A stretch of 64,000 nt of DNA. It comes from Bdellovibrionales bacterium. Lineage in GTDB: Bacteria; Bdellovibrionota; Bdellovibrionia; Bdellovibrionales; JAGQZY01. The notes under the pieces were generated by a model, which did no database searches, was not told the DNA's origin, and worked only from the letters and a program-made list of their open reading frames with translations. Every line of letters starts with the position of its first letter. Position 1 is the first letter of the stretch. Positions 1,484 to 64,000 of the stretch are shown piece after piece. The stretch spans positions 1,248,395 through 1,312,394 of the forward strand of contig CAXRHT010000002.1 in assembly GCA_964230645.1 (NCBI GenBank), written 5' to 3'. The translations under genes and the position numbers were made by a program.

Positions 1484-1586
1484 CTCAACTCAACATCCAA
1501 TCACGAATGCAAAGCAGCTAAAGCAAAGCCCATTTTATCCCTAAAGCCTGAAATAGTCTCCTCTATTGTATCAATATCGGTCAGTA

Positions 1587-11944: not shown

Positions 11945-11971
11945 TTAAGTTAAGTTCCAATACACCGATAA
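11945..11971 (+). promoter_or_regulatory. Candidate sigma-28-type promoter upstream of FecR-like gene
   Basis: TTAAGTTA-N11-ACCGATAA, 34 nt upstream of ATG 12006, which has a GAGGAG RBS. Confidence 0.4.
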
Positions 11972-50373: not shown

Positions 50374-50379
50374 AAATAG

Positions 50380-50406
50380 TTATCGGACTAAGTGCTTAAG
50401 AGTTTA
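50380..50406 (-). promoter_or_regulatory. Sigma-28 (FliA)-type promoter of the giant fibre gene
   Basis: Minus strand reads TAAA-N15-TCCGATAA (equivalently TAAACTCT-N11-TCCGATAA). It is followed by CTATTT and then the GTG start codon. Confidence 0.5.
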
Positions 50407-50670
50407 GGATTTTTGTGCATTTACTCGATAATTTATAGGAATTTTTGTGCTTTTTTGTCTCTCCATGAGCCGGAGTCTCAATACTTTCCGCTAGCTGTCT
50501 TTTTATGATACAGACTTTTCAAGGCTGTCAGAAAATAGACAAGCTTAGTAAAATTCTGAAGAGCTGAGGTCGAGGTATATATAGACTAAAGTTAGCTCCC
50601 CCTACATTTGATTCCAGTAGTGAGACAATTCTTGTTTGCTAATCACTGTAATAAATAATAGAAAAAGTCC

Positions 50671-51330
50671 ATGGCATTGACTCTTATTTCAGTTCCTATT
50701 GGAAATCTAGGGGATATCACCCTACGAGCTTTAGAAAGCCTCAAATCGGCTGACCTTTATATTGGTGAGGAACGTAAACCTATGTTTCGCCTATTAAAAG
50801 AATTAGGCGTGGCCACTCCTAAAAACTTTGAACTTCTCAATGAGCATTCCGAAAAAGAAGACATCAAAAGACTGGCGCAACTCTGCAAGAATCAAAATGT
50901 GGTTCTACTCACCGACTGTGGCACGCCTGGCTTTAGTGATCCGGGGGCTGAACTCGTCAGTGAATGTTATAAACAAGAAATTTTAGTGACCGCCAACCCT
51001 GGTGCTTCAGCACTCACAACATTCTTAAGTCTTAGTGGCGTTCGATTAGAAAAATTTAATTACTATGGGTTTTTACCAAGAGAAAAAAACGAAAGGCAAA
51101 AAGCCATCCAGAGCCTTTGCAAAGTCAAAACGCCCACAATTATCATGGACACAGCCTACCGCCTAAAAAAAACTCTCACCCAATTTGATCAGGTGAATTC
51201 AAACTCAGAATTCGTGCTTGGTATGGATTTAACCAAGCCCAGTGAAAAAGTATTGAGTGGGAAAATGAGCCAGATTTTAAGGGATTATGATGGTGAAAAA
51301 AGAGAGTTTTTGTTGTTGATTCTTCCCTAG
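50671..51330 (+). CDS. rsmI: 16S rRNA 2'-O-methyltransferase RsmI-like (tetrapyrrole-methylase fold, short form)
   Basis: LISVPIGNLGDITLRALESLKSADLYIGEERK N-terminus and ...LLTDCGTPGFSDPG. Confidence 0.7.
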   Translation: MALTLISVPIGNLGDITLRALESLKSADLYIGEERKPMFRLLKELGVATPKNFELLNEHSEKEDIKRLAQLCKNQNVVLLTDCGTPGFSDPGAELVSECYKQEILVTANPGASALTTFLSLSGVRLEKFNYYGFLPREKNERQKAIQSLCKVKTPTIIMDTAYRLKKTLTQFDQVNSNSEFVLGMDLTKPSEKVLSGKMSQILRDYDGEKREFLLLILP

Positions 51331-51340
51331 GGAAGCAAAT

Positions 51341-51886
51341 TTAGCTTAAGGAGGCTCTCTGGGTCTCTTGCTTTTCTTGTGTAGGACCTTTTGAAATTAT
51401 TTTACCAGGGATTCCTGCAACTGTGACTCCCTCAGGAGCATTCATCATTACCACAGAATTCGCTCCCACTTTCACATTGTTTTCAAGCGTAATGGGTCCA
51501 AGTATTTTTGCCCCAGCCCCCACCATAACATTGTTTTTTAGGGTTGGATGACGTTTGACTCTATTGTTGCTCACTCCACCGAGAGTCACTCCGTGATAAA
51601 GCACACAGTCGTCTCCAACTTCCGCTGTTTCTCCGACAACAATTCCCGCTCCGTGGTCAATGACGAGGCGACGACCGATTTTTGCACCTGGATGAATTTC
51701 GATCAGGGTAAGGACTCTAGAAATTTCGGATATCAAGCGCGCAATGAAGTAGAGTTTTAATTTATAAAAAAAGTGAGCCATCCGGTGCATAAACATGGCT
51801 TTGGGTCCTGGATAAAGGAGAGCCACTTCGAAAATTGATCGAGCGGCAGGATCATAATTTTTATAGGCTTTTAAAAAATCGATCAT
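51341..51886 (-). CDS. cysE: Serine O-acetyltransferase
   Basis: Hexapeptide-repeat core IHPGAKIGRRLVIDHGAGIVVGETAEVGDDCVLYHGVTLGG. Confidence 0.88.
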   Translation of the reverse strand: MIDFLKAYKNYDPAARSIFEVALLYPGPKAMFMHRMAHFFYKLKLYFIARLISEISRVLTLIEIHPGAKIGRRLVIDHGAGIVVGETAEVGDDCVLYHGVTLGGVSNNRVKRHPTLKNNVMVGAGAKILGPITLENNVKVGANSVVMMNAPEGVTVAGIPGKIISKGPTQEKQETQRASLS

Positions 51887-52851
51887 GAATCAGAGTCTTT
51901 GAAATTGTTTTTATAAAAGTGACGAGTGTATAAGTTATTAAAAGATGTCCAATCACCCTCACCGGAATGATCCTGGCCCATAAACTGAGTGATTGAATCA
52001 ACTTTTGAATCAAAATCGTCGATCATCCAAACCACATAAGCCTCAAGCATCATGGGTACTTTAGGAGATCCGTATTCGAGTTTTCCATGGTGACTTAAAA
52101 TGATGTGTTTTAAAACCATGATCAGATCCTCTGGAAACCCCATTATTTGACTGGCTTTTTTATCTACAAGCTCAGCTGACATCACCAAATGCCCAACAAG
52201 TCTTCCCTGGTCGGTGTAGCGGATGCCTTTTTTGGTCCACTCCAACTCCCAAATCTTTCCAATGTCGTGGAAGATGGCTCCAAAAATTAACAAATCAAAG
52301 TTCAACTGTGGGTACTGCTTCGCCACAAACACCATAATTTTACTGATGGAAAGAATGTGATCAATCAAACCACCCACTTTTACATGATGAATCGATTTCG
52401 CGGCTGGTGATTTCAAAAGCCTTTCTTTAACTTGAGGGTCGTCTAATGTACTTTTGATGAGTTGCTTAATGGGCTCGGATTGAACTTGATTGACGATTTG
52501 AAGGAGTTCTTGCAACACCTCCTCGGGAGACTGACTGATCTCACCGACATAGTCTTCAAAATTTAAGTCCTCATCTTTAATAGGGTCAATACGATGAATG
52601 ATCACCTGCTTTTTGTTCTGAAAAAGTTGAACCTGACCTTTGACAATAACTATATCGCCCGACTCAAAAGTATTTTTCATTCGTTCGATATTGTCCCAAA
52701 TCTTGGCATCAACACTACCACTTTTATCACTAAGATAAAGAGATATATAGGGATTGCCCTTTTTGTCGGTAAGAACTGTCTTATTTTTTGCTAGAAATGT
52801 GGTGTGCAGACTTTGCTTATCTTCCAAGTCTGCAACGAATAACTTCTCCAT
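51883..52851 (-). CDS. OB-fold plus HD-domain 3'-5' exoribonuclease (YhaM-like)
   Basis: N-terminal OB fold (GDIVIVKGQVQLFQNKKQ). HD motifs HH...GGLIDH, FHDIGK and LSHHG. Confidence 0.75.
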   Translation of the reverse strand: MEKLFVADLEDKQSLHTTFLAKNKTVLTDKKGNPYISLYLSDKSGSVDAKIWDNIERMKNTFESGDIVIVKGQVQLFQNKKQVIIHRIDPIKDEDLNFEDYVGEISQSPEEVLQELLQIVNQVQSEPIKQLIKSTLDDPQVKERLLKSPAAKSIHHVKVGGLIDHILSISKIMVFVAKQYPQLNFDLLIFGAIFHDIGKIWELEWTKKGIRYTDQGRLVGHLVMSAELVDKKASQIMGFPEDLIMVLKHIILSHHGKLEYGSPKVPMMLEAYVVWMIDDFDSKVDSITQFMGQDHSGEGDWTSFNNLYTRHFYKNNFKDSDS

Positions 52852-52857
52852 AAACCC

Positions 52858-53520
52858 CTAATTGCCTTTGCATTGAAAACTCGGATAGCGACTATCCGTG
52901 AGGCGAATATAGCCCAAGTAGAGTCGTTCTTCAATAAGCTGAAAGAAGATGTATGTCCCTGCCATTAGATGCAGATAATGGCGACGAGAGGCCGTTAAAT
53001 TGACTCCTGAGCCATAGGTAAACACATCAGCCTTCTCACTGAGGTCAAAAATCTTGCCACAGCCATTGCCCCAGGCATTGCCCTCTTTGACCTCTCCCGG
53101 CGACTCACTCACATAAAGCAAATGAAAATTCTTTTCTTCTTGAAAATCTGGCACCATGCGAAGCTGAAATGGGCCCTTGCCAGAAAGATAATCGAAAAAA
53201 TCAATCTCTCCGCCCCCTTCCACAAAATTGAGGCGATAATTGAGGCCACCTCTCAATACAACGTTGTTTTCGCTATAAAGCTCAACACCCACAGATATGG
53301 GAAGAACAGAAAAATTCTCAAGGATTTTTTTATCAGCCCCATCGGCTTTCATGCCTTCTTTAATCAAGGCCCACACTTTCCGAGGCACCTGGATGTTTTG
53401 GTAATTAAAGGGCATATCGATCACTTTCCAAGAGGACCCCTCCTCTATTTCCTGGGAAAGTGTAGGTGAGGCAACCAAAATGACAATGAAAATAGTGATG
53501 AAAAATCTTATTTTTTTCAC
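52858..53520 (-). CDS. Secreted hypothetical protein
   Basis: Signal peptide MKKIRFFITIFIVILVASPTLSQ. Confidence 0.65.
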   Translation of the reverse strand: MKKIRFFITIFIVILVASPTLSQEIEEGSSWKVIDMPFNYQNIQVPRKVWALIKEGMKADGADKKILENFSVLPISVGVELYSENNVVLRGGLNYRLNFVEGGGEIDFFDYLSGKGPFQLRMVPDFQEEKNFHLLYVSESPGEVKEGNAWGNGCGKIFDLSEKADVFTYGSGVNLTASRRHYLHLMAGTYIFFQLIEERLYLGYIRLTDSRYPSFQCKGN

Positions 53521-53536
53521 TGGTCCTCCTCTAAAA

Positions 53537-55264
53537 CTAAAGCTTTTTTTGCATTTTCAATAAAGGCGCAAAATTGGGGGATTGACCCAGTCCCTCTCTA
53601 ATCGAAGCTCGTGATTCACTTCGGTTGTCTTTGAGCAGCAAACTCGCGTTCCCCCAATGGGAATAAAGAAGGGAGAGATGCTTTGAGTGCTGCCCTTTGA
53701 AAATAGCACGTCCACAGTTCATGTCACCAGCAACCAGACAGCCTCTTAAGATCGTTTCGATCAGAGGCTTCTGTTGATCCATTTGGGAGAGAAAGCCTAA
53801 ACTATTTTTGGCTTGAGACAGCTCTTCGAGTTTCAATAAAGACGAAGCATAAAGAGCTTGCAGAATCCCGTCCTCGTTTTGCTGAGACAAAAGGTCTTCA
53901 AAAATATTCTTTGCTTCAATTGTGCGACGAACTTTTAAAAGGCAAAAACCATTGAGTAGCTTACTATGAAAATCACCAAGTCCGGATGCCAACTTATTGC
54001 ACATGGGAATAAAATCTAGCCAATTGAAGCCCTGAAAGTCTATGAGAGGATCATGTACGTGAAGATTGGTCAGCTCAAAATCAATTTTAAGAAAATTCTT
54101 AACATGTTTGAGTAAATTCTCTGGCTCTGAATCTAATTTTGAATTCGCGATAGCAACAAGAAAGGCCACCTCTTGTTTAAAATCATAGTGCCTCTGCGCG
54201 AATTGATCGGCGACCGATAAAACCTCAGAAAGGATGGCATCATCTTCGTTTTTTAGTCCTAGCTCAAGCAGAGCTCTGATATAAAAAAAGTGTGCGACAG
54301 ATTTTTCTTTGTTTTCGGCAACGACCTGTCTCATTAGGGAAACGGCTTGCTCAGCTTTCTGTACTTTCATAAGAGCATAAGCTTTATTTAATTGAGCTGG
54401 CATGAATTGATTGTCAAAATTCAATGCCTCATCGTAATTTGCCAAAGCTTCGGCAAATTTACCTCGGTAAGAATAAGAGAGTCCAACTATATTGTTGCCA
54501 ATTTTATTAATTGTCTTTTGGCGACTTTTTGCCAACATACTTTCGATATTTGTTTGGACCTGATTGAATTGCCCACCAAACTGGATGGCTAGTGGTGACA
54601 TCTCAATAAGTAGATTCGAGTCATTGGGTGAAATATTGTAGGCCTTGGAAAAGTTTTTAAGAGCTTTCTCATACTCTCCCACCTTAAGGTTTTCCATGCC
54701 TGCATCTGTAAACTGATCGAAGGCTGAAATTTTTTGCTCAATAAGTTTACTCTGCTTGAACTCATAGACTAGATAACCGGCTCCCCCGATCACTAGCAAA
54801 AGAAAGCTAAAGACAAAAACAAGAGGAAAACGCTTTTTCTGACTCTGAGCTGATCTGTGTACCGCCGAATTTGGCGGAATGGGAGCTTCCATGGCCTGCG
54901 GTGGTTGATAAACCCTTGTGGGCTCCATATTATCTTCTTCGCCATGAATATGGGGCGTTTCTGTTGCCGTTTCCTGATCAATGACGGAAACCGTCTGAGT
55001 CGGTGTGTCGGTTTTGGTATGAATATCAAGAGTTGCCGTCATGGTATGCTCACCACGGGCCTGATAAGTACTCGCCTTTAACTTTTCTATGGCTGCGGCA
55101 AATAGAGAATGATCTTTAATTGGGCGCCATCTTTCAAAAGGACCTTTGATTTCATCAAGAAGGTGGATATCACCATTAAATATGTTCTCAACCACACGAT
55201 CAAATTCATAAGGACCAAGAACGCTATCATTTGATTTTACTAACCATTGTTTGTCTGCGTTCAT
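53537..55264 (-). CDS. GYF_2-domain, single-TM, TPR-repeat protein
   Basis: N-terminal WLVKSNDSVLGPYEFDRVVENI (GYF_2-like), a TM segment FPLVFVFSFLLLVIGGAGYLVY, then TPR-like repeats. Confidence 0.7.
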   Translation of the reverse strand: MNADKQWLVKSNDSVLGPYEFDRVVENIFNGDIHLLDEIKGPFERWRPIKDHSLFAAAIEKLKASTYQARGEHTMTATLDIHTKTDTPTQTVSVIDQETATETPHIHGEEDNMEPTRVYQPPQAMEAPIPPNSAVHRSAQSQKKRFPLVFVFSFLLLVIGGAGYLVYEFKQSKLIEQKISAFDQFTDAGMENLKVGEYEKALKNFSKAYNISPNDSNLLIEMSPLAIQFGGQFNQVQTNIESMLAKSRQKTINKIGNNIVGLSYSYRGKFAEALANYDEALNFDNQFMPAQLNKAYALMKVQKAEQAVSLMRQVVAENKEKSVAHFFYIRALLELGLKNEDDAILSEVLSVADQFAQRHYDFKQEVAFLVAIANSKLDSEPENLLKHVKNFLKIDFELTNLHVHDPLIDFQGFNWLDFIPMCNKLASGLGDFHSKLLNGFCLLKVRRTIEAKNIFEDLLSQQNEDGILQALYASSLLKLEELSQAKNSLGFLSQMDQQKPLIETILRGCLVAGDMNCGRAIFKGQHSKHLSLLYSHWGNASLLLKDNRSESRASIREGLGQSPNFAPLLKMQKKL

Positions 55265-55280
55265 ATCCCCACCCTAACCA

Positions 55281-56768
55281 TCAGTGCCTGAAGTGCCTTC
55301 GGCCTGTAAAGACCATAGGAATGTTCAATTCTTTGGCTTTGGCTATGACAGCCTCATCTTTGATCGATCCTCCTGGTTGAATGATCGCTTTCACGCCATG
55401 CTTGGCCGCCAATTCGATCGAGTCTGGAAAAGGGAAAAAGGCATCACTGGCCAGATAAAGATTTTTTTCTTCGGGATGAAACTGCTTTGAACGGGCAAAG
55501 GCCTGCTCAACAGCATCCACTCGATTGACCTGCCCCATACCAAGTCCTAAAGATTGATTCTCGTTGGTTACAGAGATCGCGTTACTTTTTAAACAAGAAC
55601 AAATCTTCCAGGAAAACTCTAGGGCTTTCCAATCTTTCTCACTGAGTTCTCCGCTAACAAGCTTCCAGCTATCACTGCGCTCGGCCACTTGGTCCGGCGT
55701 TTGTATCACTTCGCCGCCAAGAATAGTGCGAGTTAAGTTTTCTAAATCTTGCTTTTTGTGATCGGGCATCTCTGGCCACTCTAAAATGCGCAGGTTCTTT
55801 TTAGTTTTAAAATGTTCTTTTGCCTCTTTAGAAAACTGCGGCGCCACCACACATTCCAAAAAAAGCTGTGTTAACATTTTTGCGCATTCAAGGTCGACCT
55901 CTTCATTAAGAGCGATGATTCCGCCAAAAACGCTGACCGGATCGGCTTTTAATGACTTTTCTAGAGCTGTTTGAATATCTTCGGCTGTGGCCGCTCCGCA
56001 AGGATTATTGTGTTTGACTGAAATCACACAGGGCTTATCGAACAAGAAAAGAGCTCTTAATGCTGCATCTAAATCGAGAAGATTATTATAGGAGAGTTCT
56101 TTACCTTGAAGAATTTCCGCTTGGTGAAGTCCCCAGTGGGTCCGGCTTTGCCACCATCCCTGTTGCTGAGGGTTTTCGCCATAGCGAAGTTCTTTAATCT
56201 CTCCATCACCGCTCAAATAGCTTTGTATAAGATGATCATATTCGCTCACATGACGAAAAACTTTTGCGGCTAGTTTCTGACGATCGGCTTTGTTGAGTTC
56301 TTTTTTTTCGCTTACCCATTTGTAGTCACTGGGGTCGCAAAGAACGGTAACACTTTCAAAGTTTTTTGCCGCAGCCCTTAACAACGTGGGTCCACCAATA
56401 TCAATCTTTTCAATCATCTCTTCCGCACTGGCTTTTTGCTCCAATGCCTCCCGAAAGGGATAAAGATTGACGAGGACAAGGTCAAAGGCCTCTAAGTTAT
56501 ACTCACTCAAGGTTTTTTGATCTTCAGGAACGGATTGTCTTTGTAGTAGTGGCATATGGATATGGGGATGAAGGGTTTTCACTCGCCCGCCCATGACCTC
56601 TGGAAACTGGGTCTGATCGCTGACCTTGACCACTTCAAAGCCTTTTTCTTCCAAATACCGAGCTGTACCACCTGAGGAAACAATTCTTAATCCCTTTTCA
56701 CTCAAGGGTTTTAAAAATTCTTCAAGACCTTCTTTATTTGAAACACTGACTAGGGCATTTTTATACAT
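55281..56768 (-). CDS. purH: Bifunctional AICAR transformylase / IMP cyclohydrolase
   Basis: MGS-like N-terminus ALVSVSNKEGL...GGRVKTLHP and AICARFT C-terminus ending RHFRH. Confidence 0.95.
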   Translation of the reverse strand: MYKNALVSVSNKEGLEEFLKPLSEKGLRIVSSGGTARYLEEKGFEVVKVSDQTQFPEVMGGRVKTLHPHIHMPLLQRQSVPEDQKTLSEYNLEAFDLVLVNLYPFREALEQKASAEEMIEKIDIGGPTLLRAAAKNFESVTVLCDPSDYKWVSEKKELNKADRQKLAAKVFRHVSEYDHLIQSYLSGDGEIKELRYGENPQQQGWWQSRTHWGLHQAEILQGKELSYNNLLDLDAALRALFLFDKPCVISVKHNNPCGAATAEDIQTALEKSLKADPVSVFGGIIALNEEVDLECAKMLTQLFLECVVAPQFSKEAKEHFKTKKNLRILEWPEMPDHKKQDLENLTRTILGGEVIQTPDQVAERSDSWKLVSGELSEKDWKALEFSWKICSCLKSNAISVTNENQSLGLGMGQVNRVDAVEQAFARSKQFHPEEKNLYLASDAFFPFPDSIELAAKHGVKAIIQPGGSIKDEAVIAKAKELNIPMVFTGRRHFRH

Positions 56769-56777
56769 CGCTCTTCC

Positions 56778-58154
56778 TTAGAAACTCATGGTTGATAGAA
56801 GAACTTTTATATCGTCGTTTGTCAGATAGAGTCCAGCTCCAATGAAGCTCGACGCATTGTCATTTCCGTTGGCAAAAATGTACTGCTGCCCACCAACGAC
56901 ATACATTCCTTTAAAGAAACTGTAGCGAAGGTAGGCGCGAACATTAGGTGTTTGAAAATCAAAGGCATCAAAAGAGGCGCGAAAACGGTTATTGTAGAAG
57001 TTGTATTCCACTCCCAAACCACCACGAGACTCCATCATTCCTCCCTTAATGGTCCAATTGTAGAATTTTTTACCGAATAGAGCCGTTAGACGTAATTTGT
57101 AATCATGTCGGGTTTCTTGAACCGTCGTCACAGGAGCTGCACCATCCACTGTGTTTGTTTGAGAAAATCTTGTGATGACTCCGTCAGGAGAGGTAATTCC
57201 AGCCAACTCATAAAAACGGTCTAAGCCTGGCTGAATACGCACGCCAATGTAAGATCTTACACCATCACCATTCATCAAAACGTGAGAGTAGTAATCGAAG
57301 TTTGTTTGAAGTTTATTACCAGCATCAATAAAATTGTTAATTCCTTCGATCGCTGTATTGACCTGCTCAACCGTTTCCTCGTCGTTAATTAATCGTCCAA
57401 TGGTTCCTTCCCCACGATTAATTTTCCCAGATATTTCATCGATATTTCCAAGGGCACTCTCTAGGCGTTCCATGGAGGAATTAAAGCGTGCTCGGAAGCC
57501 GTCATCACTACGGTCATTGATCATTTCATCCAAAGAGGCTGTCACATTATTGAGGTGATCAATAAGATCTCCCACCTCATCCTTTTTGTCTGCCATAAGG
57601 TCGGAAAGATCAGTGGTGATCCTTTCTATATTCTTGACGATCTTACCAATGGGCTTAGTATCATCGCCTTCTGTGGCGTCTCGAATATTATCGATCACCT
57701 CACCTAAGCTTTGAGTGATTTTACTGACCTCTGTAACGATTCGATCAAGGGATGCGTTGTCTTCAACAACAACGATTTGCTCTTTGTTTTCTAATACGGG
57801 GTCATTCATGGAACCAGGAATGATTTCAATATGTTTGTCACCAAGAATCCCGTTGGCACGCACTTCAATTTTTGAAGACTGGGTCAAAACGACATCCGGT
57901 CGAATGGCCATAAGAACAACGGCCTTCCCCTCTTTAAGCTGAATGTCTTCAATGATACCGACCCGGATTCCAGCCACGTTCACTGGAGAGTTTTTGATCA
58001 GCCCCCCGGCATTTTCGATTTCAAACCAAATTCTTTTGGTTCCGCCGATAAAGTTGGGGCTTTCACTCACACGCATGGACATCACACCCACAAGGCAGGC
58101 TACCACAATGACCAGCATTCCAACTTTGAATTCGGGGGTGCGAAGAAGATTCAT
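56778..58154 (-). CDS. mlaD: MCE/MlaD-family protein with long C-terminal extension (458 aa)
   Basis: N-terminal TM plus MCE domain (res ~40-125), a long helical region, and a beta-rich C-terminus ending ...LLSTMSF. Its stop overlaps the end of mlaF. Confidence 0.8.
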   Translation of the reverse strand: MNLLRTPEFKVGMLVIVVACLVGVMSMRVSESPNFIGGTKRIWFEIENAGGLIKNSPVNVAGIRVGIIEDIQLKEGKAVVLMAIRPDVVLTQSSKIEVRANGILGDKHIEIIPGSMNDPVLENKEQIVVVEDNASLDRIVTEVSKITQSLGEVIDNIRDATEGDDTKPIGKIVKNIERITTDLSDLMADKKDEVGDLIDHLNNVTASLDEMINDRSDDGFRARFNSSMERLESALGNIDEISGKINRGEGTIGRLINDEETVEQVNTAIEGINNFIDAGNKLQTNFDYYSHVLMNGDGVRSYIGVRIQPGLDRFYELAGITSPDGVITRFSQTNTVDGAAPVTTVQETRHDYKLRLTALFGKKFYNWTIKGGMMESRGGLGVEYNFYNNRFRASFDAFDFQTPNVRAYLRYSFFKGMYVVGGQQYIFANGNDNASSFIGAGLYLTNDDIKVLLSTMSF

Positions 58155-58915
58155 TTCTTGCGAACTCCTTTAGAAACAAAACGTGAGACTAAAGGGTTAT
58201 CGGATTCCATAAAATCTTTTGGAGTCCCGTAAAGTAATACCTTGCCGCTGTCTAACATTGCTACATAATCTCCGATGCGAAAAGCTGCATGTAAGTCATG
58301 GGACACCACCAATGACGCAGTGTCCTCTTTATGATTATGCGTGCTTAGAATCAAATTATCCACCATTTCCGTTAAAATTGGATCAAGACCCGTCGTTGGT
58401 TCGTCATAAACCAGGATATCTGGATCTAGGGCCAAGGCACGAGCTAGACCACAACGCTTTCTCATTCCTCCCGAAACTTCGCCCGGCAATTTGTTGTAGT
58501 GCTTTTCGTCCAGTCCTGATTGCTTGAGCTTTTCGTAAGCAATCTCTTTTACTTGGTTTTTTGATAATTCTTTACGATGTTCGTTGAGTGGAAATTTCAC
58601 GTTCTCAAGAATTGTTCGGTCGTCAAAAAGTGCGGCGTACTGAAACAAAACACCAAAATGTTTTCTCATTTTGACTGTCTCAGCATCACTCATTTTAGAA
58701 ATATCTCGTCCTAAAATTTTAATGCTTCCCGCTGTCGGTTTAAGCAAACCAAGGATGTGTTTGAGAAGAACACTTTTTCCCGTTCCGCTAAAACCAATAA
58801 TAACGGTGATCTTTCCTTTTGGAATTTCTAAGTTGATACCATTAAGAACATAATCCCCTTCGGTGAAGGATTTTTTTAGATTATTAATCTCAATGGCATT
58901 TTCTTTCTCGCCCAT
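58151..58915 (-). CDS. mlaF: ABC transporter ATP-binding protein (MlaF-like)
   Basis: Walker A GFSGTGKS, signature VSGGMRKR, Walker B ILVYDEPT. Confidence 0.9.
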   Translation of the reverse strand: MGEKENAIEINNLKKSFTEGDYVLNGINLEIPKGKITVIIGFSGTGKSVLLKHILGLLKPTAGSIKILGRDISKMSDAETVKMRKHFGVLFQYAALFDDRTILENVKFPLNEHRKELSKNQVKEIAYEKLKQSGLDEKHYNKLPGEVSGGMRKRCGLARALALDPDILVYDEPTTGLDPILTEMVDNLILSTHNHKEDTASLVVSHDLHAAFRIGDYVAMLDSGKVLLYGTPKDFMESDNPLVSRFVSKGVRKK

Positions 58916-58934
58916 AGGCCCTGCTGCTTCTCCA

Positions 58935-59762
58935 TCATGCTGTCAATTTGTAGTAAATCTCGATAAGGTTCATTAAAAAGAAATCTAGAATAATAATCAT
59001 AACCATACTAAGGACAACACCTCGGTTGGTGGCATCCCCAACACCGCGAGCCCCCCCACTGGTGTTGTAGCCTCTATAGCAGCAGATCAAAGAGAAAACC
59101 GCTCCGAAGACCGCACCCTTTATTAAGCCCTCATTGATGTGGGCTGGGTTGAGCCAAAGAGCTGTTTTATCCCAGAAGATCGCCTCATCCATTTCCAAAA
59201 CTCGAATACATAAAAAGTAGGAGCCGATCATGGCCACAAAATCAAAAACTCCTGTTAGTAGTGGAAGAGAAATGATTGAGGCCCATAACCTTGGAGCCAC
59301 CAAATATTCTTGAGGGTCAACTCCCATTACTTCGAGGGCATCGATCTGCTCGGACACACGCATGGACCCAAGGTTGGCGGCCATAGCTCCACCGGCACGG
59401 GCGGCTACAATTAATCCGGTTAGTACAGGACCTAACTCTCTTGCGATACCCATAGCGACAATGGGACCTGTTAAACTGGTTGCATTGACAAGGCGAAAAC
59501 CGAGATAGACTTGAAAAGATAAGGCCATTCCAGTGAATGTCCCCGTGAGAACAACAATAAAAATGGATTTGTTCCCAATGAACTCCATCTGCTGAATGAA
59601 CTCTTTAAAACGATAGGGCTTTGAAAAAAAGGTTTTAAGAGAGTAGGCTCCAAACGAAAAAACCGCCCCAACTTCATAAATAAAACCTTCAATGGTTTCC
59701 CAGATGGTCCCAAAAACAAGGTCAAAAAAATCATTAACCTTTTGCCTAACCGTTTCGCTCAA
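58935..59762 (-). CDS. mlaE: ABC transporter permease (MlaE-like)
   Basis: MlaE-type multi-TM protein. TTG start 2 nt after the alr stop. Confidence 0.85.
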   Translation of the reverse strand: MSETVRQKVNDFFDLVFGTIWETIEGFIYEVGAVFSFGAYSLKTFFSKPYRFKEFIQQMEFIGNKSIFIVVLTGTFTGMALSFQVYLGFRLVNATSLTGPIVAMGIARELGPVLTGLIVAARAGGAMAANLGSMRVSEQIDALEVMGVDPQEYLVAPRLWASIISLPLLTGVFDFVAMIGSYFLCIRVLEMDEAIFWDKTALWLNPAHINEGLIKGAVFGAVFSLICCYRGYNTSGGARGVGDATNRGVVLSMVMIIILDFFLMNLIEIYYKLTA

Positions 59763-59764
59763 AC

Positions 59765-60892
59765 TTATTCTCCGTAGTGCCTTGGCACTCTCTCACTAAT
59801 TCCCGTTACCACTTCATAAGTGATGCGTCCGGCTTTCCTGGAGAACTCTTCCACCAGGATTTCTTCTTGCCCCTGTTTACCAATAAGGACCACCTCTTCA
59901 CCGATGAGATCTTTTTTCGGAGTTAACCCAGAAAGATCCACCATAGTGTAGTCCATGCAAACACGTCCTCGAATGGGAACTCTTTTTTCTCGCACAAGAA
60001 ACTCCCCTTCATTGGATAGGCTGCGGCAAACACCATCGGCGTACCCAGCCGGAACAATTCCAATCAAAGAGTCTTTGGAAGCTTTCCAAGTTCCACCGTA
60101 AGACACCACTTCTCCTGATTTTACTTCCTGAGTCGCAACAATTTTAGACTTATACTCCATAACAGGACTAACGAGAGGCTTCATCGGCAGATCCTCTTCC
60201 GGATCAATACCATAGGATAGGAGACCCGGACGCAGTCCGTACTCAAGATTGAGACCTTCTAAATGAAGCCTGGCTGTGGCTGCCGAATTATAAGCGTGGA
60301 GAAAAACTGAGGAGTTTTGAAACTGCTGGTAAGCTTTTTTGAAGTTTATAAGTTGCTGATCTGTGGATGAGCCAGTGAGATGAATATTGTCTCCTGAGGC
60401 CAAGTGAGTGCAAAGCCCCTGGACCTTTAGGTGGGAGTTTTTCGCAAGGCTCTTTTTAAGTGCCTCTAATTCACTCAATTGAAAGCCTAAGCGATTCATA
60501 CCGGTATTGAATTTTAAATGGATTTTTGTGTCGGTCTTGGCTTGCTTAACAAGTTCTCCAAGTTGATCAAAGTTTGAAACAATAGCAACAAAATTATTTT
60601 TTAGGATCTCTTCGACGGCTTCTTTTCCAGTAAAGTTAAACACTAATAAATGAGCTTTCACTCCGCTGATATAAAGACCTATGGCCTCTTCTACCGAAGA
60701 CACTCCCAAAAATTGACAGTTTAATTTTTCAACTAGAGTTTGGCTGACAGCCACATCACCATGTCCGTAGGCATTGGCCTTCACCATAGGGCAAAGAAAG
60801 CCAGATGGTTTTGAAAGTTTTTTTAATTCTTTATAGTTTTCCACCAGGCGATCGAGATGAATAACAAGATGGGTGGGGCGCAGCTGATCCAT
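59765..60892 (-). CDS. alr: Alanine racemase
   Basis: PLP-lysine motif MVKANAYGHG. The C-terminal beta-domain contains VSYGG. Confidence 0.92.
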   Translation of the reverse strand: MDQLRPTHLVIHLDRLVENYKELKKLSKPSGFLCPMVKANAYGHGDVAVSQTLVEKLNCQFLGVSSVEEAIGLYISGVKAHLLVFNFTGKEAVEEILKNNFVAIVSNFDQLGELVKQAKTDTKIHLKFNTGMNRLGFQLSELEALKKSLAKNSHLKVQGLCTHLASGDNIHLTGSSTDQQLINFKKAYQQFQNSSVFLHAYNSAATARLHLEGLNLEYGLRPGLLSYGIDPEEDLPMKPLVSPVMEYKSKIVATQEVKSGEVVSYGGTWKASKDSLIGIVPAGYADGVCRSLSNEGEFLVREKRVPIRGRVCMDYTMVDLSGLTPKKDLIGEEVVLIGKQGQEEILVEEFSRKAGRITYEVVTGISERVPRHYGE

Positions 60893-61149
60893 GGTTGTAT
60901 TTTATCGAGCCTCAATGCTTTTGGGCTGTCACAGTGCAGAAGGTTTTTTTGTAAAAAATCATAGTTGAAACCCACTAACTTCTCTCATTTCCTCAAGAAA
61001 TTTTATTTTTCTATTCTCACTTTGAGAATTTTAATTCACTTTTTCTAGCAAGGGATCTTCCTTGGAAGACAGATTAAACGGACTTGAGAAACCCTATTCT
61101 CATTTGGCGACACACTCTAAAAAACTGGCACAAAATAGCCCCGTATTTT

Positions 61150-61176
61150 TTCACTTTTCTCTTATATTGCCGATAA
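61150..61176 (+). promoter_or_regulatory. Sigma-28-type promoter of the second fibre gene
   Basis: TTCACTTT-N11-GCCGATAA, where the -10 is a perfect match to the consensus I recall. It is followed by GTATAT and then GTG 61183. Confidence 0.45.
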
Positions 61177-61182
61177 GTATAT

Positions 61183-64000
61183 GTGCACGTTAGTAGAGGA
61201 TTTTTTTTATTTTTAGGGCTTTTATTATCAGCCTCATTTTCTTTCGCCGCCCCGGCGAAGTTTACCTATCAAGGTCAAATCATCAAACCCAATGGTCAAC
61301 CTCTTGAAGACAGTAATGTGGCCTTCAGAATAGAAATTGTTTCTCCAGGGCCTGAAGCTTGTATTCTCTATGAAGAAACTCATACCTTGAATATGTCAGC
61401 TTCAAACGGAATTTTTAGTGTCACAGTGGGTGAGGGCGCTCGCCCCGGTGACGGAAGTTTTGAAGACCTCACAACTCTTCGCGACGCTCTTGATAATTCC
61501 ACAGGACTTGTTTCTCCCACCGATTGCACAGGGGGGCCTAATTACACCCCTGCGATCGATGATGGCAGAAAATTGAGAGTCACTTTTAACGATGGATCCG
61601 GACCTGTGACTCTGACTCAAGATCACAACGTGGTCAGTGTACCTTTTGCTAGCAGTGCTCACAGTGTGAGTGGGCTCACGGCAACGGACTTATTAACTAT
61701 TCGTGATGATGCCAGTTTTCAATTAAACCAAGCCAATCTGGAAACTGTTTTTTCAAATGCCAACTGGGCGGAACTCCAAGCCCTTCTTGATGGTTCGAGC
61801 AGCAGTTTTGTGCAACCAGCCCCCACGGGGGATGTGGACAATAATAACCAAAAAATCGTCAACCTGGCAGACCCTGATCCAAATGAAGGAAAGGATGCTG
61901 TTAATGTCGATTACGCCAATAGCTACATCGGTGGACAGGCAGTGGACACAGCTGACCTCAGCACTTTGGCCGTTGGGAATGCTGACGAAGTTTTAACCTG
62001 GAACGGAACCCAGTGGACTTCAACCAGTATTCCCGAGGACACGACAAAACTCAACAAAGCCGGTGACACCATGAGTGGCACGCTTAATATGGGCAATAAT
62101 GACATCACCAATATTAACAATCTCTCTGTTAACTCCACCATCTCTGTGACTGGAGGAATTGGAGTGGGCACAGGGATTAATTCCGGTGGGACCATTAATT
62201 TACAAAATGAAAACGCACTTCAGTTTTCTGAAAACTCTGGTAACGGCACTAACTTCGTTTCTTTAAAAGCTCCCAATGCACTCGCTAGCGATTTGAGCTG
62301 GACACTTCCGAGCACTCAAGGCACTCCAGGGCAGATGCTACAAGCCGGAACAGGCGGAACTCTATCCTGGGCAGATCCTAGTGCCATCGGCTATCTTCAA
62401 GATGGTGGTAATAGCACTGGAGCTTCCATTCGTGTGGGAACGAACGATTCACAGTCTCTTGAACTTGAAACTAACAACACTGCGCGAATGACTTTAGACA
62501 GCACAGGTGATGTGGGAATCGGTACGACAAATCCATGGGAACGACTGACCGTTGTAGGTGGAGGAATATCCGTTCAAGATACTATAAATGGAGGGACTGC
62601 GACGGCTTTGTCTCTCAATAACCCCCACGCAGGATTTGGTGGTCCAAGAGTTGGTATGGATTTTAGCTTGGGCACAGGAAGCGTGACCTATTCAAGAATT
62701 TCATCGGGAGCCGAAGCCTCTAACCGTGGGTCTCTTCGCTTTTTTACTCGAGGTACTACACCTTCTATTGGTATTTATGAAAGAATGACTATTAACGAGG
62801 ATGGAAATGTTGGAATCGGTACGTCCGATCCTTCAGAGCGTCTTGAGGTGAACGGTACTATACGTAGCCAGGACTTGGTAGTTCAGGGGACAACTGGTTC
62901 TGCCCATAGTGTTTATATTTCTAATGCTTCCAACGGAATATACTTGGGAGTTGACGGCTATGAAAATGGGACGATAAATGTAGAAAGATCCAACTCCGAC
63001 CTTCGATTCCAAATTGCCGGTTCAGATCAAATGAGAATTCTTGATTCAGGAAATGTAGGTATTGGGACATCAAACCCCTCCACTAAATTAGAGGTAAACG
63101 GGACCCTCACGGCTTCGGCTTATGTCGGAAATGGGTCGGGACTCACAAACGTCACTTCAACAAGCTCTACCTCCTCTACTAATACTAGTAACTATATTAT
63201 TAATTCGGACTCCGACAACACTGGTGCTGATGGAGGAGTGAGTTTTCAAACCAACGGCTCAACCGTCGCTTCCGTAAGTGCCTCAGGTCAGCTTAATGGA
63301 AACTCTGGTTCTGTGGGCTCTGTTGGCATCGGATTTCAAGGAGACTCTGATACCGGGCTCTACTCCCCTATTGTGGATACGGTTTCACTATCCGCTGGTG
63401 GCATTGAGGGGTTGAGAATCAACAATACTCCCAGTGGTGTGAACTATGTTGAACTTTATCCTGGGGCCACTGGAGCTGGACCAACTATCGCTTCGGCTGG
63501 AAGTGATACTAATATTGATATCAATTTTACTCCCAAAGGGTCTGGACATAGTATTTTTACATCAGGACGGGTTGGCCTCGGCGTCTCTAACCCCTCTGAA
63601 CGCCTTGATGTGCAAGGAAACATTAATTTATCAGGTCGTATTTTTGGTGGAGAAACGGATTCGTACCTCGATATCCACGGTGGCGGAGGGCGAATCATAG
63701 GTAACAATAGAACAGTGATTAGTGGCTCAAAAGGCTCACAGCTTAACATTAGTGTAGGCGATGAACTAGAAGCGGGGTCGGGTCGCATTCGAATGAAACT
63801 CGACACTGGCTTTCGTGATGACACGCCCGACGCCACTGTTGAAATTAGTGCGGATGGTTCGACGACCGGAAGTGCTTTTATGGTGAGTTCCGATGATAAT
63901 AATGATGGAGATCTTGTTAATATCTTAAAGAATGGCGATGTCGGCATTGGAACCTCGAGTCCTTCTTCAAAATTTGAGGTGGTTGGAACTGTTACCGCTT
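61183..64000 (+). CDS. Second giant fibre protein, 5' partial (open to window end, at least 939 codons)
   Basis: Not in the ORF track because no stop is reached. My hand translation of the 5' ~440 codons (61183 to about 62500) and of the last ~23 codons, both in frame 1, found no stop; the ORF track lists no competing frame-1 ORF in between. Starts GTGCACGTT: MHVSRGFFLFLGLLLSASFSFA|APAKFTYQGQIIKPNGQPLE..., collinear with the first ~410 aa of 40630..50373. It then reads DGGNSTGASIRVGTND...GDVGIGTTNP, and the last visible motif is GDVGIGTSSPSSKFEVVG. Confidence 0.85.
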   Translation, partial: MHVSRGFFLFLGLLLSASFSFAAPAKFTYQGQIIKPNGQPLEDSNVAFRIEIVSPGPEACILYEETHTLNMSASNGIFSVTVGEGARPGDGSFEDLTTLRDALDNSTGLVSPTDCTGGPNYTPAIDDGRKLRVTFNDGSGPVTLTQDHNVVSVPFASSAHSVSGLTATDLLTIRDDASFQLNQANLETVFSNANWAELQALLDGSSSSFVQPAPTGDVDNNNQKIVNLADPDPNEGKDAVNVDYANSYIGGQAVDTADLSTLAVGNADEVLTWNGTQWTSTSIPEDTTKLNKAGDTMSGTLNMGNNDITNINNLSVNSTISVTGGIGVGTGINSGGTINLQNENALQFSENSGNGTNFVSLKAPNALASDLSWTLPSTQGTPGQMLQAGTGGTLSWADPSAIGYLQDGGNSTGASIRVGTNDSQSLELETNNTARMTLDSTGDVGIGTTNPWERLTVVGGGISVQDTINGGTATALSLNNPHAGFGGPRVGMDFSLGTGSVTYSRISSGAEASNRGSLRFFTRGTTPSIGIYERMTINEDGNVGIGTSDPSERLEVNGTIRSQDLVVQGTTGSAHSVYISNASNGIYLGVDGYENGTINVERSNSDLRFQIAGSDQMRILDSGNVGIGTSNPSTKLEVNGTLTASAYVGNGSGLTNVTSTSSTSSTNTSNYIINSDSDNTGADGGVSFQTNGSTVASVSASGQLNGNSGSVGSVGIGFQGDSDTGLYSPIVDTVSLSAGGIEGLRINNTPSGVNYVELYPGATGAGPTIASAGSDTNIDINFTPKGSGHSIFTSGRVGLGVSNPSERLDVQGNINLSGRIFGGETDSYLDIHGGGGRIIGNNRTVISGSKGSQLNISVGDELEAGSGRIRMKLDTGFRDDTPDATVEISADGSTTGSAFMVSSDDNNDGDLVNILKNGDVGIGTSSPSSKFEVVGTVTA

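What the first reader, a model, noticed from the sequence alone, without database searches (positions are those of the whole stretch)
61150..64000. Second fibre paralogue with conserved N-terminal region of about 410 aa, then reshuffled modules, divergently flanking a housekeeping block
Hand translation of the plus strand from GTG 61183 gives a protein collinear with fibre 1 through about residue 410. The shared stretch runs from PAKFTYQGQIIKPNG, through NNNQKIVNLADP and LTW(D/N)GTQW, to SLK(S/A)P and ends at LSW. By eye, roughly two-thirds of these residues are identical. After that point the order differs. Fibre 2 goes straight into DGGNSxGAxIxxGTND...GxVGIGT modules, which in fibre 1 occur only near residue 2925. 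So the two genes share an anchor or base region but have mosaic shafts. Their start codons are 10.8 kb apart and point outward, bracketing rsmI and the alr-to-cysE gene array. The paralogue is missing from the supplied ORF track because it has no stop in the window.
Basis: seen in the sequence. Interest (0 to 1): 0.8.

Follow-up and report, generated by a model that had tools for sequence, protein, structure and literature searches.

The report
Second predator surface-fibre (MAT) gene
The end of the window holds the first 939 codons of a second long surface-fibre gene of the "mosaic adhesive trimer" family that predatory Bdellovibrio-like bacteria use to grip prey; it is a real paralogue of the 3247-residue fibre 10.8 kb away, but the family was described in 2024, so this is a new member and not a new kind of thing.

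Summary
From GTG 61183 the plus strand is open for 939 codons to the window end. Residues 1-401 align collinearly with residues 1-418 of the 3247-aa protein at 40630-50373(-), at 59% identity (E 6e-149). Both proteins pass the curated NCBIfam model Bdello_MAT_N (144 and 130 bits, cut-off 60). Their shafts carry the VGIGTxxPxxxL capping-loop motif. Their only sequence matches in the PDB are the solved B. bacteriovorus MAT fibres. All 78 related loci lie in Bdellovibrionales-type MAGs, several per genome.

The finding is therefore two MAT-family fibre adhesins: a known kind, with new members.
- The DGGN module occurs three times in fibre 1 (residues 1106, 1466, 2926), not once.
- Beyond residue ~400 the two shafts are only 25-33% identical, so they are different shafts, not shuffled copies.
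- Flanking of the housekeeping block is not conserved beyond one close relative.

Extra finding: both genes have a sigma-28/FliA -10 box starting 13 nt before the GTG and no Shine-Dalgarno. This is the geometry of experimentally mapped leaderless attack-phase MAT transcripts in strain HD100.

The 3' end and tip of fibre 2 could not be recovered. A shaft orthologue of 2317 aa ends in a Peptidase_G2 chaperone domain.

The parts
61149..61176 (+). Predicted sigma-28/FliA-type promoter of fibre 2. It has a weak -35-like TTTCA (61149-61153), a 16-nt spacer and a -10 box GCCGATAA (61169-61176).
   Evidence: Read from the sequence. The B. bacteriovorus attack-phase consensus is TTAAG-N16-CCGATA (PMC3627812). 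The same CCGATAAG-N5-GTGCACGT block is present at fibre 1 and at L004, L005, L009, L010, L020 and L098. The box sits at -13/-14 in 12/50 family ORFs against 12/832 other ORFs (p 4.7e-10).
61183..61248 (+). GTG start codon and Sec-type signal peptide (MHVSRGFFLFLGLLLSASFSFA|AP). There is no Shine-Dalgarno upstream, and the predicted transcription start is at or next to the GTG (leaderless).
   Evidence: An in-frame TAA lies 9 nt upstream and no other start is available. The signal peptide is judged by eye: basic n-region, hydrophobic core and an SFA|A site. No predictor was run. The leaderless geometry matches mapped HD100 MAT transcription starts.
61249..61698 (+). MAT N-terminal domain (Bdello_MAT_N), a beta-rich domain that directly follows the signal peptide.
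   Evidence: NCBIfam NF053851.1: 144 bits, cut-off 60, E 3.4e-42, residues 13-172. AlphaFold2 gives residues ~25-150 as beta-rich, with most 10-residue blocks at pLDDT 77-96 and one dip to 61 at residues 91-100. The domain is 39% and 36% identical to the same region of Bdellovibrio sp. NC01 and B. bacteriovorus proteins. There are 2319 representative clusters at E<=1e-3, and in the 150 best listed the match begins within about the first 70 residues of the protein.
61699..62385 (+). Rest of the region shared with fibre 1 (residues ~173-401). It comprises a short helical neck, tail-fibre-like motifs (NNNQKIVNLADP..DAVN, KAGDTMSGTLNMG) and a (Y/F)VSLKAP...TLP...GQxLQ...LSW unit.
   Evidence: Collinear 59% alignment with fibre 1. 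It is conserved to about residue 400 only in the closest subfamily, and more distant members stop at about residue 160, 211 or 316. pLDDT is low as a monomer.
62386..64000 (+). Shaft of fibre 2 (residues ~402-939, open at the window end). It begins with a DGGNS...GDVGIGT module and carries five VGIGTxxPxxxL capping-loop motifs.
   Evidence: Motif counts are 5 against ~0 in shuffles. PDB sequence hits are to MAT fibres 8OND (Bd2133, E 3.6e-10), 8OJN (5e-9), 8OML, 8OL4 and 8ON4. PHROG tail-fibre families 9942 and 18345 match. The region is collinear with the L005 ORF.
40630..50373 (-). Fibre 1, the complete 3247-aa MAT paralogue. It has the N-terminal shared region (49120-50373), a shaft with 15 capping-loop motifs and two internal tandem duplications, and a C-terminal beta-sandwich tip (~40633-40932).
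   Evidence: Bdello_MAT_N scores 130 bits. The tip is 52% identical to the tip of a B. bacteriovorus 'cell wall surface anchor' protein. The tip model has pLDDT ~86 over its folded part and no PDB fold match at E<1e-3.
50380..50407 (-). Predicted sigma-28/FliA-type promoter of fibre 1: CTAAA-N16-CCGATAA, with the -10 box starting 13 nt before GTG 50373.
   Evidence: The geometry is the same as at fibre 2 and at the HD100 MAT promoters.
50671..60892 (.). Intervening housekeeping block: rsmI (+), then on the minus strand cysE, a yhaM-like gene, a 220-aa ORF with no family match, a TPR protein gene, purH, mlaD/F/E-like genes and alr. It is not part of the fibre system.
   Evidence: NCBIfam assignments. 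No synteny with fibre genes in 78 related loci.

Best explanation
Window 61183 to beyond 64000 encodes the N-terminal 939 residues of a second mosaic adhesive trimer (MAT) fibre of an uncultured Bdellovibrionales bacterium. It is a paralogue of the complete 3247-residue MAT at 40630-50373(-).

Anatomy that is shown:
- A signal-peptide-like N-terminus.
- The curated MAT N-terminal beta-rich domain.
- About 230 further residues shared only with the closest subfamily (a helical neck plus tail-fibre-like units).
- A shaft of repeated modules, each ending in the VGIGTxxPxxxL capping loop known from solved MAT beta-helices. This shaft differs from that of fibre 1.

How it most likely works, inferred from the B. 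bacteriovorus HD100 family:
- The gene is transcribed in the free-swimming attack phase by sigma-28 (FliA). The promoter's -10 box starts 13 nt before the GTG, so the mRNA is leaderless or nearly so.
- The protein is exported by Sec and reaches the cell surface by an unknown route.
- Three chains intertwine into a long beta-helical fibre.
- The conserved N-terminal end stays at the predator surface and the variable distal tip binds surface epitopes of prey.
- Several paralogues with one base and different shafts and tips widen the range of recognised prey.

The tip of fibre 2 lies outside the window. By orthology with a 2317-residue protein of a related MAG, fibre 2 is probably over 2000 residues long and may end in a Peptidase_G2-type autoproteolytic intramolecular chaperone.
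For: - N-terminal homology to fibre 1: 59% over 419 columns, E 6e-149.
- NCBIfam Bdello_MAT_N: 144 bits (fibre 2) and 130 bits (fibre 1), against a cut-off of 60.
- The N-domain is 36-39% identical to those of a B. bacteriovorus 'cell wall surface anchor' protein and a Bdellovibrio sp. NC01 S74 tail-fibre protein.
- AlphaFold2 gives a confident beta-rich domain at residues ~25-150.
- For fibre 2, the only PDB sequence matches are the MAT fibres of Caulton et al. 2024. For fibre 1 they are the three best of five, the other two being weak matches to an adenoviral fibre and a phage tail fibre (E 0.004 and 0.015).
- Capping-loop motif: 5 copies in fibre 2 and 15 in fibre 1, against ~0 in shuffles. 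The motif itself is described in PMC10769870.
- 201 relatives in genomes, and all 78 loci kept are from Bdellovibrionales-type MAGs, several per genome.
- 2319 representative clusters carry the domain, near the N-terminus in the 150 best listed.
- Promoter: CCGATAAG-N5-GTG at both genes and at the closest homologues, enriched at -13/-14 in the family (p 4.7e-10).
- In HD100 the mapped transcription start equals the first base of the start codon for MAT genes Bd0705, Bd0884, Bd1130, Bd1334, Bd1712, Bd2133, Bd2582 and Bd3266, each with a FliA box 13-14 nt upstream.
- Orthologue architecture comes from L005.
Against: - The 3' part of fibre 2 is not in the window and could not be retrieved. Intactness, length and tip are unknown.
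- In a close relative the orthologue carries an in-frame TGA at codon 271. Loss of this gene is therefore possible, although it may be a MAG error.
- Trimerisation, surface display, prey binding, sigma-28 dependence and leaderless translation from GUG are all inferred and not shown for this organism, which is uncultured and not demonstrated to be predatory.
- The -35 element of fibre 2 is weak (TTTCA).
- The signal peptide was judged by eye only.
Confidence: 0.85

Rival explanations
1. Fibre 2 is a decaying remnant. The N-terminal 939 codons are still open, but the gene is truncated or frameshifted beyond the window and makes no functional fibre.
For: The 3' end is unseen. The orthologue in a close relative (L098, 85% nt identity) has an in-frame TGA where the window has TTA, codon 271. 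The closest relative of fibre 1 in another MAG (L004 ORF, P0001) ends in an aberrant tail, and an overlapping downstream ORF suggests a frameshift.
Against: There are 939 uninterrupted codons. The promoter and start block are conserved. The Bdello_MAT_N score is full strength, 144 bits. The gene is collinear at 48% with an intact 2317-aa orthologue. The L098 reading frame continues undisturbed after the single TGA at 73% protein identity, which fits a sequencing error or a very recent event in that strain only.
Confidence: 0.07
2. It is a genuine MAT-type fibre whose role is not prey recognition. It could serve general adhesion to surfaces or particles, cell-cell contact, or as a decoy or receptor for phage.
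For: No experiment exists for this organism. The tip is unknown. Single MAT deletions in HD100 give little or no predation defect (PMC10769870). Giant members of 2000-4100 aa are much longer than the characterised HD100 fibres of 760-1567 aa.
Against: The family is restricted to Bdellovibrionales-type genomes in the scan. The promoter is the attack-phase type. One HD100 member binds prey glycans, and several localise to the predator surface or prey contact site.
Confidence: 0.08
3. It is a prophage or phage-derived tail fibre gene, not a cellular adhesin.
For: Shaft modules match PHROG 'tail fiber protein' families 9942 and 18345 (E 1.8e-16 and 1.3e-11 for fibre 2). Relatives carry phage-type S74 or G2 chaperone domains.
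Against: The protein has a signal peptide and the Bdello_MAT_N domain, which phage fibres lack. Its neighbours are alr, mla, purH, cysE and rsmI, with no phage structural genes. It has a sigma-28 cellular promoter. The MAT family is already known to be phage-like yet cellular.
Confidence: 0.02
4. The two inverted N-terminal regions act as recombination arms of an invertible 10.8-kb segment. Inversion would swap promoters and N-termini between the two fibres, as in a shufflon.
For: The two genes are divergent and share about 1.2 kb of homologous coding sequence in inverted orientation.
Against: The longest inverted DNA match between them is 63 nt at 75%, far too diverged for homologous recombination. 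No recombinase lies between them. The arrangement is absent from other species.
Confidence: 0.02

Closest known systems
MAT (mosaic adhesive trimer) fibre proteins of Bdellovibrio bacteriovorus HD100 (Caulton et al. 2024, PMC10769870), for example Bd2133 and Bd1334 (non-S74) and Bd3182 (S74)
   Same: Signal peptide followed by the conserved beta-rich N-domain, which passes NCBIfam Bdello_MAT_N. Shaft modules with the VGIGTxxPxxxL capping loop, with direct sequence matches to the solved shafts 8OND, 8OJN and 8OML. Several paralogues per genome with one base and different distal parts. A sigma-28 box 13-14 nt before the start codon, as at the mapped leaderless HD100 MAT promoters. The tip of fibre 1 is 52% identical to the tip of a B. 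bacteriovorus 'cell wall surface anchor' protein.
   Different: These proteins are much longer: fibre 1 is 3247 aa and the fibre 2 orthologue 2317 aa, against 760-1567 aa in HD100. The region conserved between these paralogues is ~400 aa, not ~130 aa. The start codon is GTG, whereas the mapped HD100 starts are A(TG). The fibre 2 orthologue ends in a Peptidase_G2-type chaperone, not S74. The fibre 1 tip has no match among the six solved tip folds (Foldseek E>0.03). The host is an uncultured Bdellovibrionales with about 43% GC, not genus-level Bdellovibrio.
Phage tail fibres and tailspikes with C-terminal intramolecular chaperones (Peptidase_S74 endosialidase chaperone; Peptidase_G2 IMC)
   Same: Trimeric beta-helical fibre logic, PHROG tail-fibre family matches in the shaft, and S74 or G2 domains at the C-terminus of relatives.
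   Different: The gene is cellular, with a signal peptide, a Bdellovibrio-specific N-terminal domain in place of a virion-attachment domain, housekeeping neighbours and a sigma-28 promoter.
Trimeric autotransporter adhesins (YadA/Hia type)
   Same: Long, repetitive, trimeric surface fibres with a modular head and stalk, and one end fixed on the producer cell.
   Different: In those adhesins the anchor is a C-terminal beta-barrel and the head is N-terminal. Here the conserved putative anchor is N-terminal. Fibre 1 has no YadA-anchor or other autotransporter Pfam match.

Membership tests
MAT (mosaic adhesive trimer) fibre family | [quoted passage not shown] | tested here: met
   NCBIfam NF053851.1 Bdello_MAT_N: fibre 2 scores 144 bits and fibre 1 130 bits, against a cut-off of 60. 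The AF2 model is beta-rich at residues ~25-150 with most blocks at pLDDT 77-96. The domain is 36-39% identical to Bdellovibrio proteins.
MAT (mosaic adhesive trimer) fibre family | N-terminal signal peptide | tested here: met
   MHVSRGFFLFLGLLLSASFSFA|AP has a basic n-region, a hydrophobic core and a small-x-small cleavage site. The AF2 model has a helix at residues 4-21. This was judged by inspection; no signal-peptide predictor was available.
MAT (mosaic adhesive trimer) fibre family | Beta-helical fibre region with capping-loop motif (V-G-I-G/N-small-x-x-P-x-x-x-L) | tested here: met
   Five motifs in fibre 2 and 15 in fibre 1, against ~0 in 500 shuffles. phmmer hits to solved MAT shafts 8OND, 8OJN, 8OML, 8OL4 and 8ON4.
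MAT (mosaic adhesive trimer) fibre family | Trimerisation along the whole fibre | not testable with these tools
   Only monomer AlphaFold2 was available. The shaft and neck have low pLDDT as a monomer, as expected for an intertwined trimer, but this proves nothing.
MAT (mosaic adhesive trimer) fibre family | Diversified C-terminal tip (S74 chaperone or a non-S74 adhesive domain) | tested here: inconclusive
   The C-terminus of fibre 2 lies beyond the window and could not be retrieved. Its shaft orthologue L005 ends in Peptidase_G2 IMC (28.7 bits, cut-off 25). Fibre 1 has a non-S74 beta-sandwich tip shared with a B. bacteriovorus protein.
MAT (mosaic adhesive trimer) fibre family | Multi-copy family in predatory Bdellovibrio-like bacteria | tested here: met
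   Two copies in the window. All 78 related loci are in Bdellovibrionales/Pseudobdellovibrionaceae-type MAGs, with up to 7 or more loci per genome.
MAT (mosaic adhesive trimer) fibre family | Surface display on the predator and binding of prey epitopes | not testable with these tools
   This needs experiments. It is known only for HD100 members (PMC10769870).
Sigma-28 (FliA) attack-phase regulon of Bdellovibrio, leaderless class | TTAAG-N16-CCGATA promoter with the transcription start at the first base of the start codon | tested here: inconclusive
   The -10 box and its spacing are met at both genes: CCGATA at -13 and no SD. The -35 is fair for fibre 1 (CTAAA) and weak for fibre 2 (TTTCA). 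The transcription start itself is not measurable here. The geometry equals that of 8 HD100 MAT genes with mapped starts.
Prophage tail fibre | Located within a phage structural gene module, with no signal peptide | tested here: not met
   The upstream neighbours are alr, mlaE/F/D, purH, cysE and rsmI, and a signal peptide is present. The downstream neighbours are unseen.
Trimeric autotransporter adhesin | C-terminal YadA-like beta-barrel membrane anchor | tested here: not met
   Fibre 1, the complete paralogue, has no such Pfam match, and its C-terminus is a soluble beta-sandwich. Fibre 2 cannot be tested.

The most novel reading that the evidence does not exclude
The two genes may represent a distinct 'long-base, giant-shaft' branch of the MAT family in uncultured Pseudobdellovibrionaceae-like predators. 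Its features would be:
- A ~400-residue conserved base: the N-domain plus a neck plus tail-fibre-like units.
- Shafts of 2000-4100 residues that grow by internal tandem duplication.
- At least some members ending in a Peptidase_G2 chaperone in place of S74.
- Expression as leaderless, GUG-initiated sigma-28 transcripts.

In addition, the base region appears to be homogenised among paralogues within some genomes (71-88% identity) while the shafts follow orthology. This would point to co-evolution of the base with a still unknown, genome-specific surface anchor.
Probability: 0.45. Interest if true: 0.45.

Novelty: new member of a known kind. Interest (0 to 1): 0.3.

Why it matters
MAT fibres are the first identified prey-recognition proteins of predatory bacteria, and so far only the 21 members of one laboratory strain have been studied. 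These two genes show that the family extends into uncultured relatives with fibres two to three times longer. They also show that the conserved 'base' can be about 400 residues instead of 130. The sigma-28, leaderless start geometry is conserved across the order, which is useful for predicting start codons and attack-phase expression in MAGs. For genome annotation, such genes break short-read assemblies and run off contigs, so they are easily missed. None of this changes the current picture of how the family works.

Tried and rejected
1. Extending fibre 2 failed by every route.
- Exact-protein look-ups of alr and mlaE returned only 2-4 kb contigs that end inside or before fibre 2. The contigs of 0.2 Mb or more that carry them were not returned.
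- The look-up of fibre 1 failed, probably because the reference translates GTG as V. The protein is in the representative library as P0104.
- An exact 28-mer scan and a protein-guided scan of metagenome contigs found nothing closer than 39%.
- The source species is not among the genome representatives; the best match is 60%.

2. Pfam gives nothing for either fibre. The family is visible only through NCBIfam.

3. A single-sequence word-index search with the N-domain alone returned one hit and was uninformative. The afdb50 fold library was unavailable.

4. Foldseek against the PDB gave no hit at E<1e-3 for the N-terminal model or for the fibre 1 tip. This agrees with the published remark that the N-domain has no PDB homologue.

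5. The inversion-switch or gene-conversion idea was rejected, because there is no long inverted DNA repeat.

6. Functional linkage to the housekeeping block was rejected, because there is no synteny in 78 loci.

7. The simple sigma-70 and terminator scan of both upstream regions gave only background.

8. BLAST of fibre 1 against itself returned only the identity hit, so chunked BLAST was used instead.
Full report
**Observation**

Translating the plus strand from GTG 61183 gives 939 codons without a stop up to the window end. An in-frame TAA lies 9 nt upstream. No other start codon is available before the hydrophobic N-terminus, so this GTG is the only possible start.

The largest ORF of the window, 40630-50373 on the minus strand (3247 aa, also a GTG start), aligns with the new protein collinearly from residue 1 to residue 401 (418 in fibre 1). 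Identity is 59%, positives 72%, and E is 6e-149, with a single 18-residue gap. tblastn finds no third copy in the window.

After residue ~401 the similarity collapses to 25-33% over scattered repeat modules. The start codons are 10,810 nt apart and divergent. The genes between them are rsmI, cysE, a YhaM-like exoribonuclease, an unassigned ORF, a TPR protein, purH, MlaD/F/E-like genes and alr.

One detail is wrong. The DGGN...G(N/D)VGIGT module with which fibre 2 continues occurs in fibre 1 at residues 1106, 1466 and 2926, not only at ~2925.

**What it is**

Pfam finds nothing. The curated NCBIfam model NF053851.1 'Bdello_MAT_N, mosaic adhesive trimer family chimeric fiber protein' matches residues 13-172 of fibre 2 at 144 bits and residues 11-168 of fibre 1 at 130 bits. 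The cut-off is 60.

The family was defined by Caulton et al. 2024 (PMC10769870). It has 21 trimeric fibres in B. bacteriovorus HD100. [quoted passage not shown]

Each testable feature is met:
- **N-terminus.** It looks like a Sec signal peptide.
- **N-domain fold.** AlphaFold2 gives a confident beta-rich domain for residues ~25-150 (most blocks at pLDDT 77-96). The rest is poorly predicted as a monomer.
- **N-domain sequence.** It is 39% identical to that of an S74-terminated 'tail fiber domain-containing protein' of Bdellovibrio sp. NC01. [quoted passage not shown]
- **PDB matches.** For fibre 2 the only sequence matches are the MAT structures 8OND (Bd2133), 8OJN, 8OML, 8OL4 and 8ON4. For fibre 1 the three best of five are MAT structures; the other two are weak matches to an adenoviral fibre and a phage tail fibre.
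- **Capping loop.** The motif VGIGTxxPxxxL occurs 5 times in fibre 2 and 15 times in fibre 1, against essentially none in shuffles (motif).
- **Phage likeness.** PHROG tail-fibre families match the shafts, in line with the phage-like nature of MATs.
- **Fold search.** Foldseek finds no PDB fold for the N-domain at E<1e-3, as the authors reported.

**Distribution**

A scan of one genome per species found 201 relatives. The 78 loci kept are all from MAGs labelled Bdellovibrionales, Bdellovibrionia, Pseudobdellovibrionaceae or the like, and there are several loci per genome. The source species itself is not among them; the best match is 60%.

An exhaustive phmmer search with the N-domain finds 2319 representative clusters at E<=1e-3. 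In the 150 best listed the match begins within about the first 70 residues of the protein. Fourteen of the 135 newly retrieved representatives exceed 2000 aa. One locus encodes a complete 4144-aa member. Giant MATs are therefore common outside HD100, where the range is 760-1567 aa.

**Relationship of the two paralogues**

Beyond the base, fibre 2 is collinear with a 2317-aa ORF of MAG YZ09aB_3.4 (L005; 48% over residues 1-939). Fibre 1 is collinear with a different ORF of the same MAG (L004; 51% over residues 1-921). The two shafts are thus old, separate lineages, not rearrangements of one another.

In the first 400 residues, however, the four proteins are about equally distant (62-68%). Paralogues within other genomes are closer to each other in this region: 71% for L004/L005 and 87-88% for L008/L009/L010. 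This hints that the base is sometimes homogenised within a genome while the shafts are not.

Fibre 1 grew by internal tandem duplication. Residues 845-1174 match 1220-1534 at 58-83%, and residues 2194-2400 match 2395-2602 at 60-74%.

The last ~100 residues of fibre 1 form a confident beta-sandwich. This tip is 52% identical to the tip of a B. bacteriovorus protein and recurs in many family loci. It has no solved structural relative.

The L005 orthologue of fibre 2 ends in a Peptidase_G2 autoproteolytic chaperone domain (28.7 bits, cut-off 25) followed by a coiled coil. This is the best available guess for the unseen end of fibre 2.

**Regulation (found in passing, then followed up)**

The only strongly conserved DNA upstream of the two genes is GCCGATAAGtatatGTGCACGTTA at fibre 2 and tCCGATAACtatttGTGCACGTTA at fibre 1. 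The same CCGATAAG-N5-GTGCACGT block precedes the closest homologues in other MAGs and in a close relative.

CCGA[TA]A starting 13-14 nt before the start codon occurs in 12 of 50 family ORFs, against 12 of 832 other ORFs in the same loci (Fisher p 4.7e-10). There is no Shine-Dalgarno sequence.

GCCGATAA is the sigma-28 -10 element. In B. bacteriovorus the attack-phase consensus is TTAAG-N16-CCGATA, and it controls, among others, 'cell-surface anchors' (PMC3627812).

Table S2 of that paper gives mapped transcription starts. For Bd0705, Bd0884, Bd1130, Bd1334, Bd1712, Bd2133, Bd2582 and Bd3266, all listed as MATs by Caulton et al., the transcription start is the first base of the annotated start codon. 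The FliA box begins 13-14 nt upstream. Bd2740 has a 2-nt leader.

The window genes have exactly this geometry. They are therefore most likely attack-phase, sigma-28-dependent, leaderless transcripts, here starting with GUG. Neither paper uses the word 'leaderless' for them, and a search for Bdellovibrio plus 'leaderless' found no paper whose title or abstract concerns this. This part is inference from homology; no transcription start was measured for this organism.

**Genomic arrangement**

None of the related loci from other species has alr, mla, purH or the other block genes beside the fibre gene. Only one close relative (L098, 85% nt identity) keeps alr next to fibre 2. The longest inverted DNA match between the two fibre genes is 63 nt at 75%. 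Divergent flanking of the housekeeping block is therefore best seen as incidental, and an inversion switch is rejected.

**What remains open**

The 3' part of fibre 2 could not be recovered. Short-read assemblies of this organism break within or just before the gene. In L098 the orthologue has an in-frame TGA where the window has TTA at codon 271, and the frame continues normally afterwards. That could be a MAG error or a nonsense allele, and it keeps the remnant rival alive at a low level.

**Verdict**

The object is a pair of MAT-family fibre adhesins, a family described in 2024 and already captured by a curated NCBI model. It is a new member of a known kind.

Three points are of modest interest: the extended 400-residue base, the giant size, and the conserved sigma-28 leaderless start geometry.

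Noticed in passing
window 61149-61194 and 50362-50407 (minus strand); L004, L005, L009, L010, L020 around 9985-10010; L098 around 790-825: A conserved CCGATAAG-N5-GTGCACGT block sits at the start of both fibre genes and their closest homologues. It is a sigma-28/FliA -10 box starting 13 nt before the start codon, with no Shine-Dalgarno. This matches mapped transcription starts of 8 HD100 MAT genes that coincide with the start codon (Karunker 2013, Table S2). The transcripts are therefore predicted to be leaderless, here GUG-initiated. Neither paper checked uses the word 'leaderless' for them.
   Followed up: yes
window 61183-61191 and 50365-50373; many loci: The short motif (G/T)(C/A/T)ACGT stays next to the start in very different contexts. 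It is coding in GTGCACGT, ATGGCACGT and ATGGTACGT. It is non-coding, just before the start or followed by a Shine-Dalgarno, in other members (gaggaACGTaaATG, cctgcACGTttaggaga-N6-ATG). No explanation was found.
   Followed up: partly
L098:1621-1623 (GCA_054229165.1), equivalent to window 61993-61995: The fibre 2 orthologue of a close relative (85% nt identity) has an in-frame TGA where the window has TTA (Leu271). The frame continues intact for a further 463 codons to the contig end. It could be a MAG error, a nonsense allele or read-through.
   Followed up: partly
L008, L009, L010 (MAG 2_bin.16); L004, L005 (MAG YZ09aB_3.4): The first 400 residues of paralogues within one genome are more alike (87-88% and 71%) than the same region between shaft orthologues of different genomes (63%). 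This suggests within-genome homogenisation of the base, or co-evolution with a genome-specific anchor. The window pair (62%) does not show it.
   Followed up: partly
window 45772-47841 and 42568-43794 (fibre 1, minus strand): Fibre 1 has large internal tandem duplications. Residues 845-1174 match 1220-1534 (58-83% identical), and residues 2194-2400 match 2395-2602 (60-74%). These account for part of its 3247-aa length.
   Followed up: yes
window 40633-40932 (fibre 1 C-terminus): The ~100-residue beta-sandwich tip (pLDDT ~86) is 52% identical to the tip of a B. bacteriovorus 'cell wall surface anchor' protein (P0101) and recurs in many family loci. It has no PDB fold match at E<1e-3, including the six solved MAT tips.
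   Followed up: partly
L018, L019, L021, L024, L027 at about 9290-9990: In one subgroup the fibre gene has its own Shine-Dalgarno and sits directly behind a ~230-aa lipoprotein-like gene. That gene carries the sigma-28 box at -13/-14. The pair looks like a two-gene operon, reminiscent of Bd3181-Bd3182 and Bd2735-Bd2734 in HD100.
   Followed up: no
window ~1574-1580 (minus strand) and 11965-11971: Further intergenic CCGATA(T/A) boxes lie upstream of a type IV pilin-like gene (854-1483, minus strand, N_methyl motif) and of a FecR-domain gene (12006-13034). These are possible additional members of the attack-phase sigma-28 regulon.
   Followed up: partly
L001, L002, L003, L082 (contigs of the same organism): Short-read assemblies carrying identical alr and mlaE genes end 426 nt into fibre 2 or before it. 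The repeated fibre genes break assemblies, so such genes are under-represented in MAGs.
   Followed up: no
window 63456-63947 (minus strand); also 46142-46699 and 47207-47779 (plus strand): ORFs of 163-190 aa lie antisense inside the fibre genes. They are most likely by-products of the repetitive, stop-poor composition and not genes.
   Followed up: no
L005:16450-16954: The 2317-aa shaft orthologue of fibre 2 ends in a Peptidase_G2 IMC autoproteolytic domain followed by a lysine- and glutamate-rich coiled coil. This terminus is neither of the two HD100 classes as described (S74 and non-S74 adhesive tips).
   Followed up: partly
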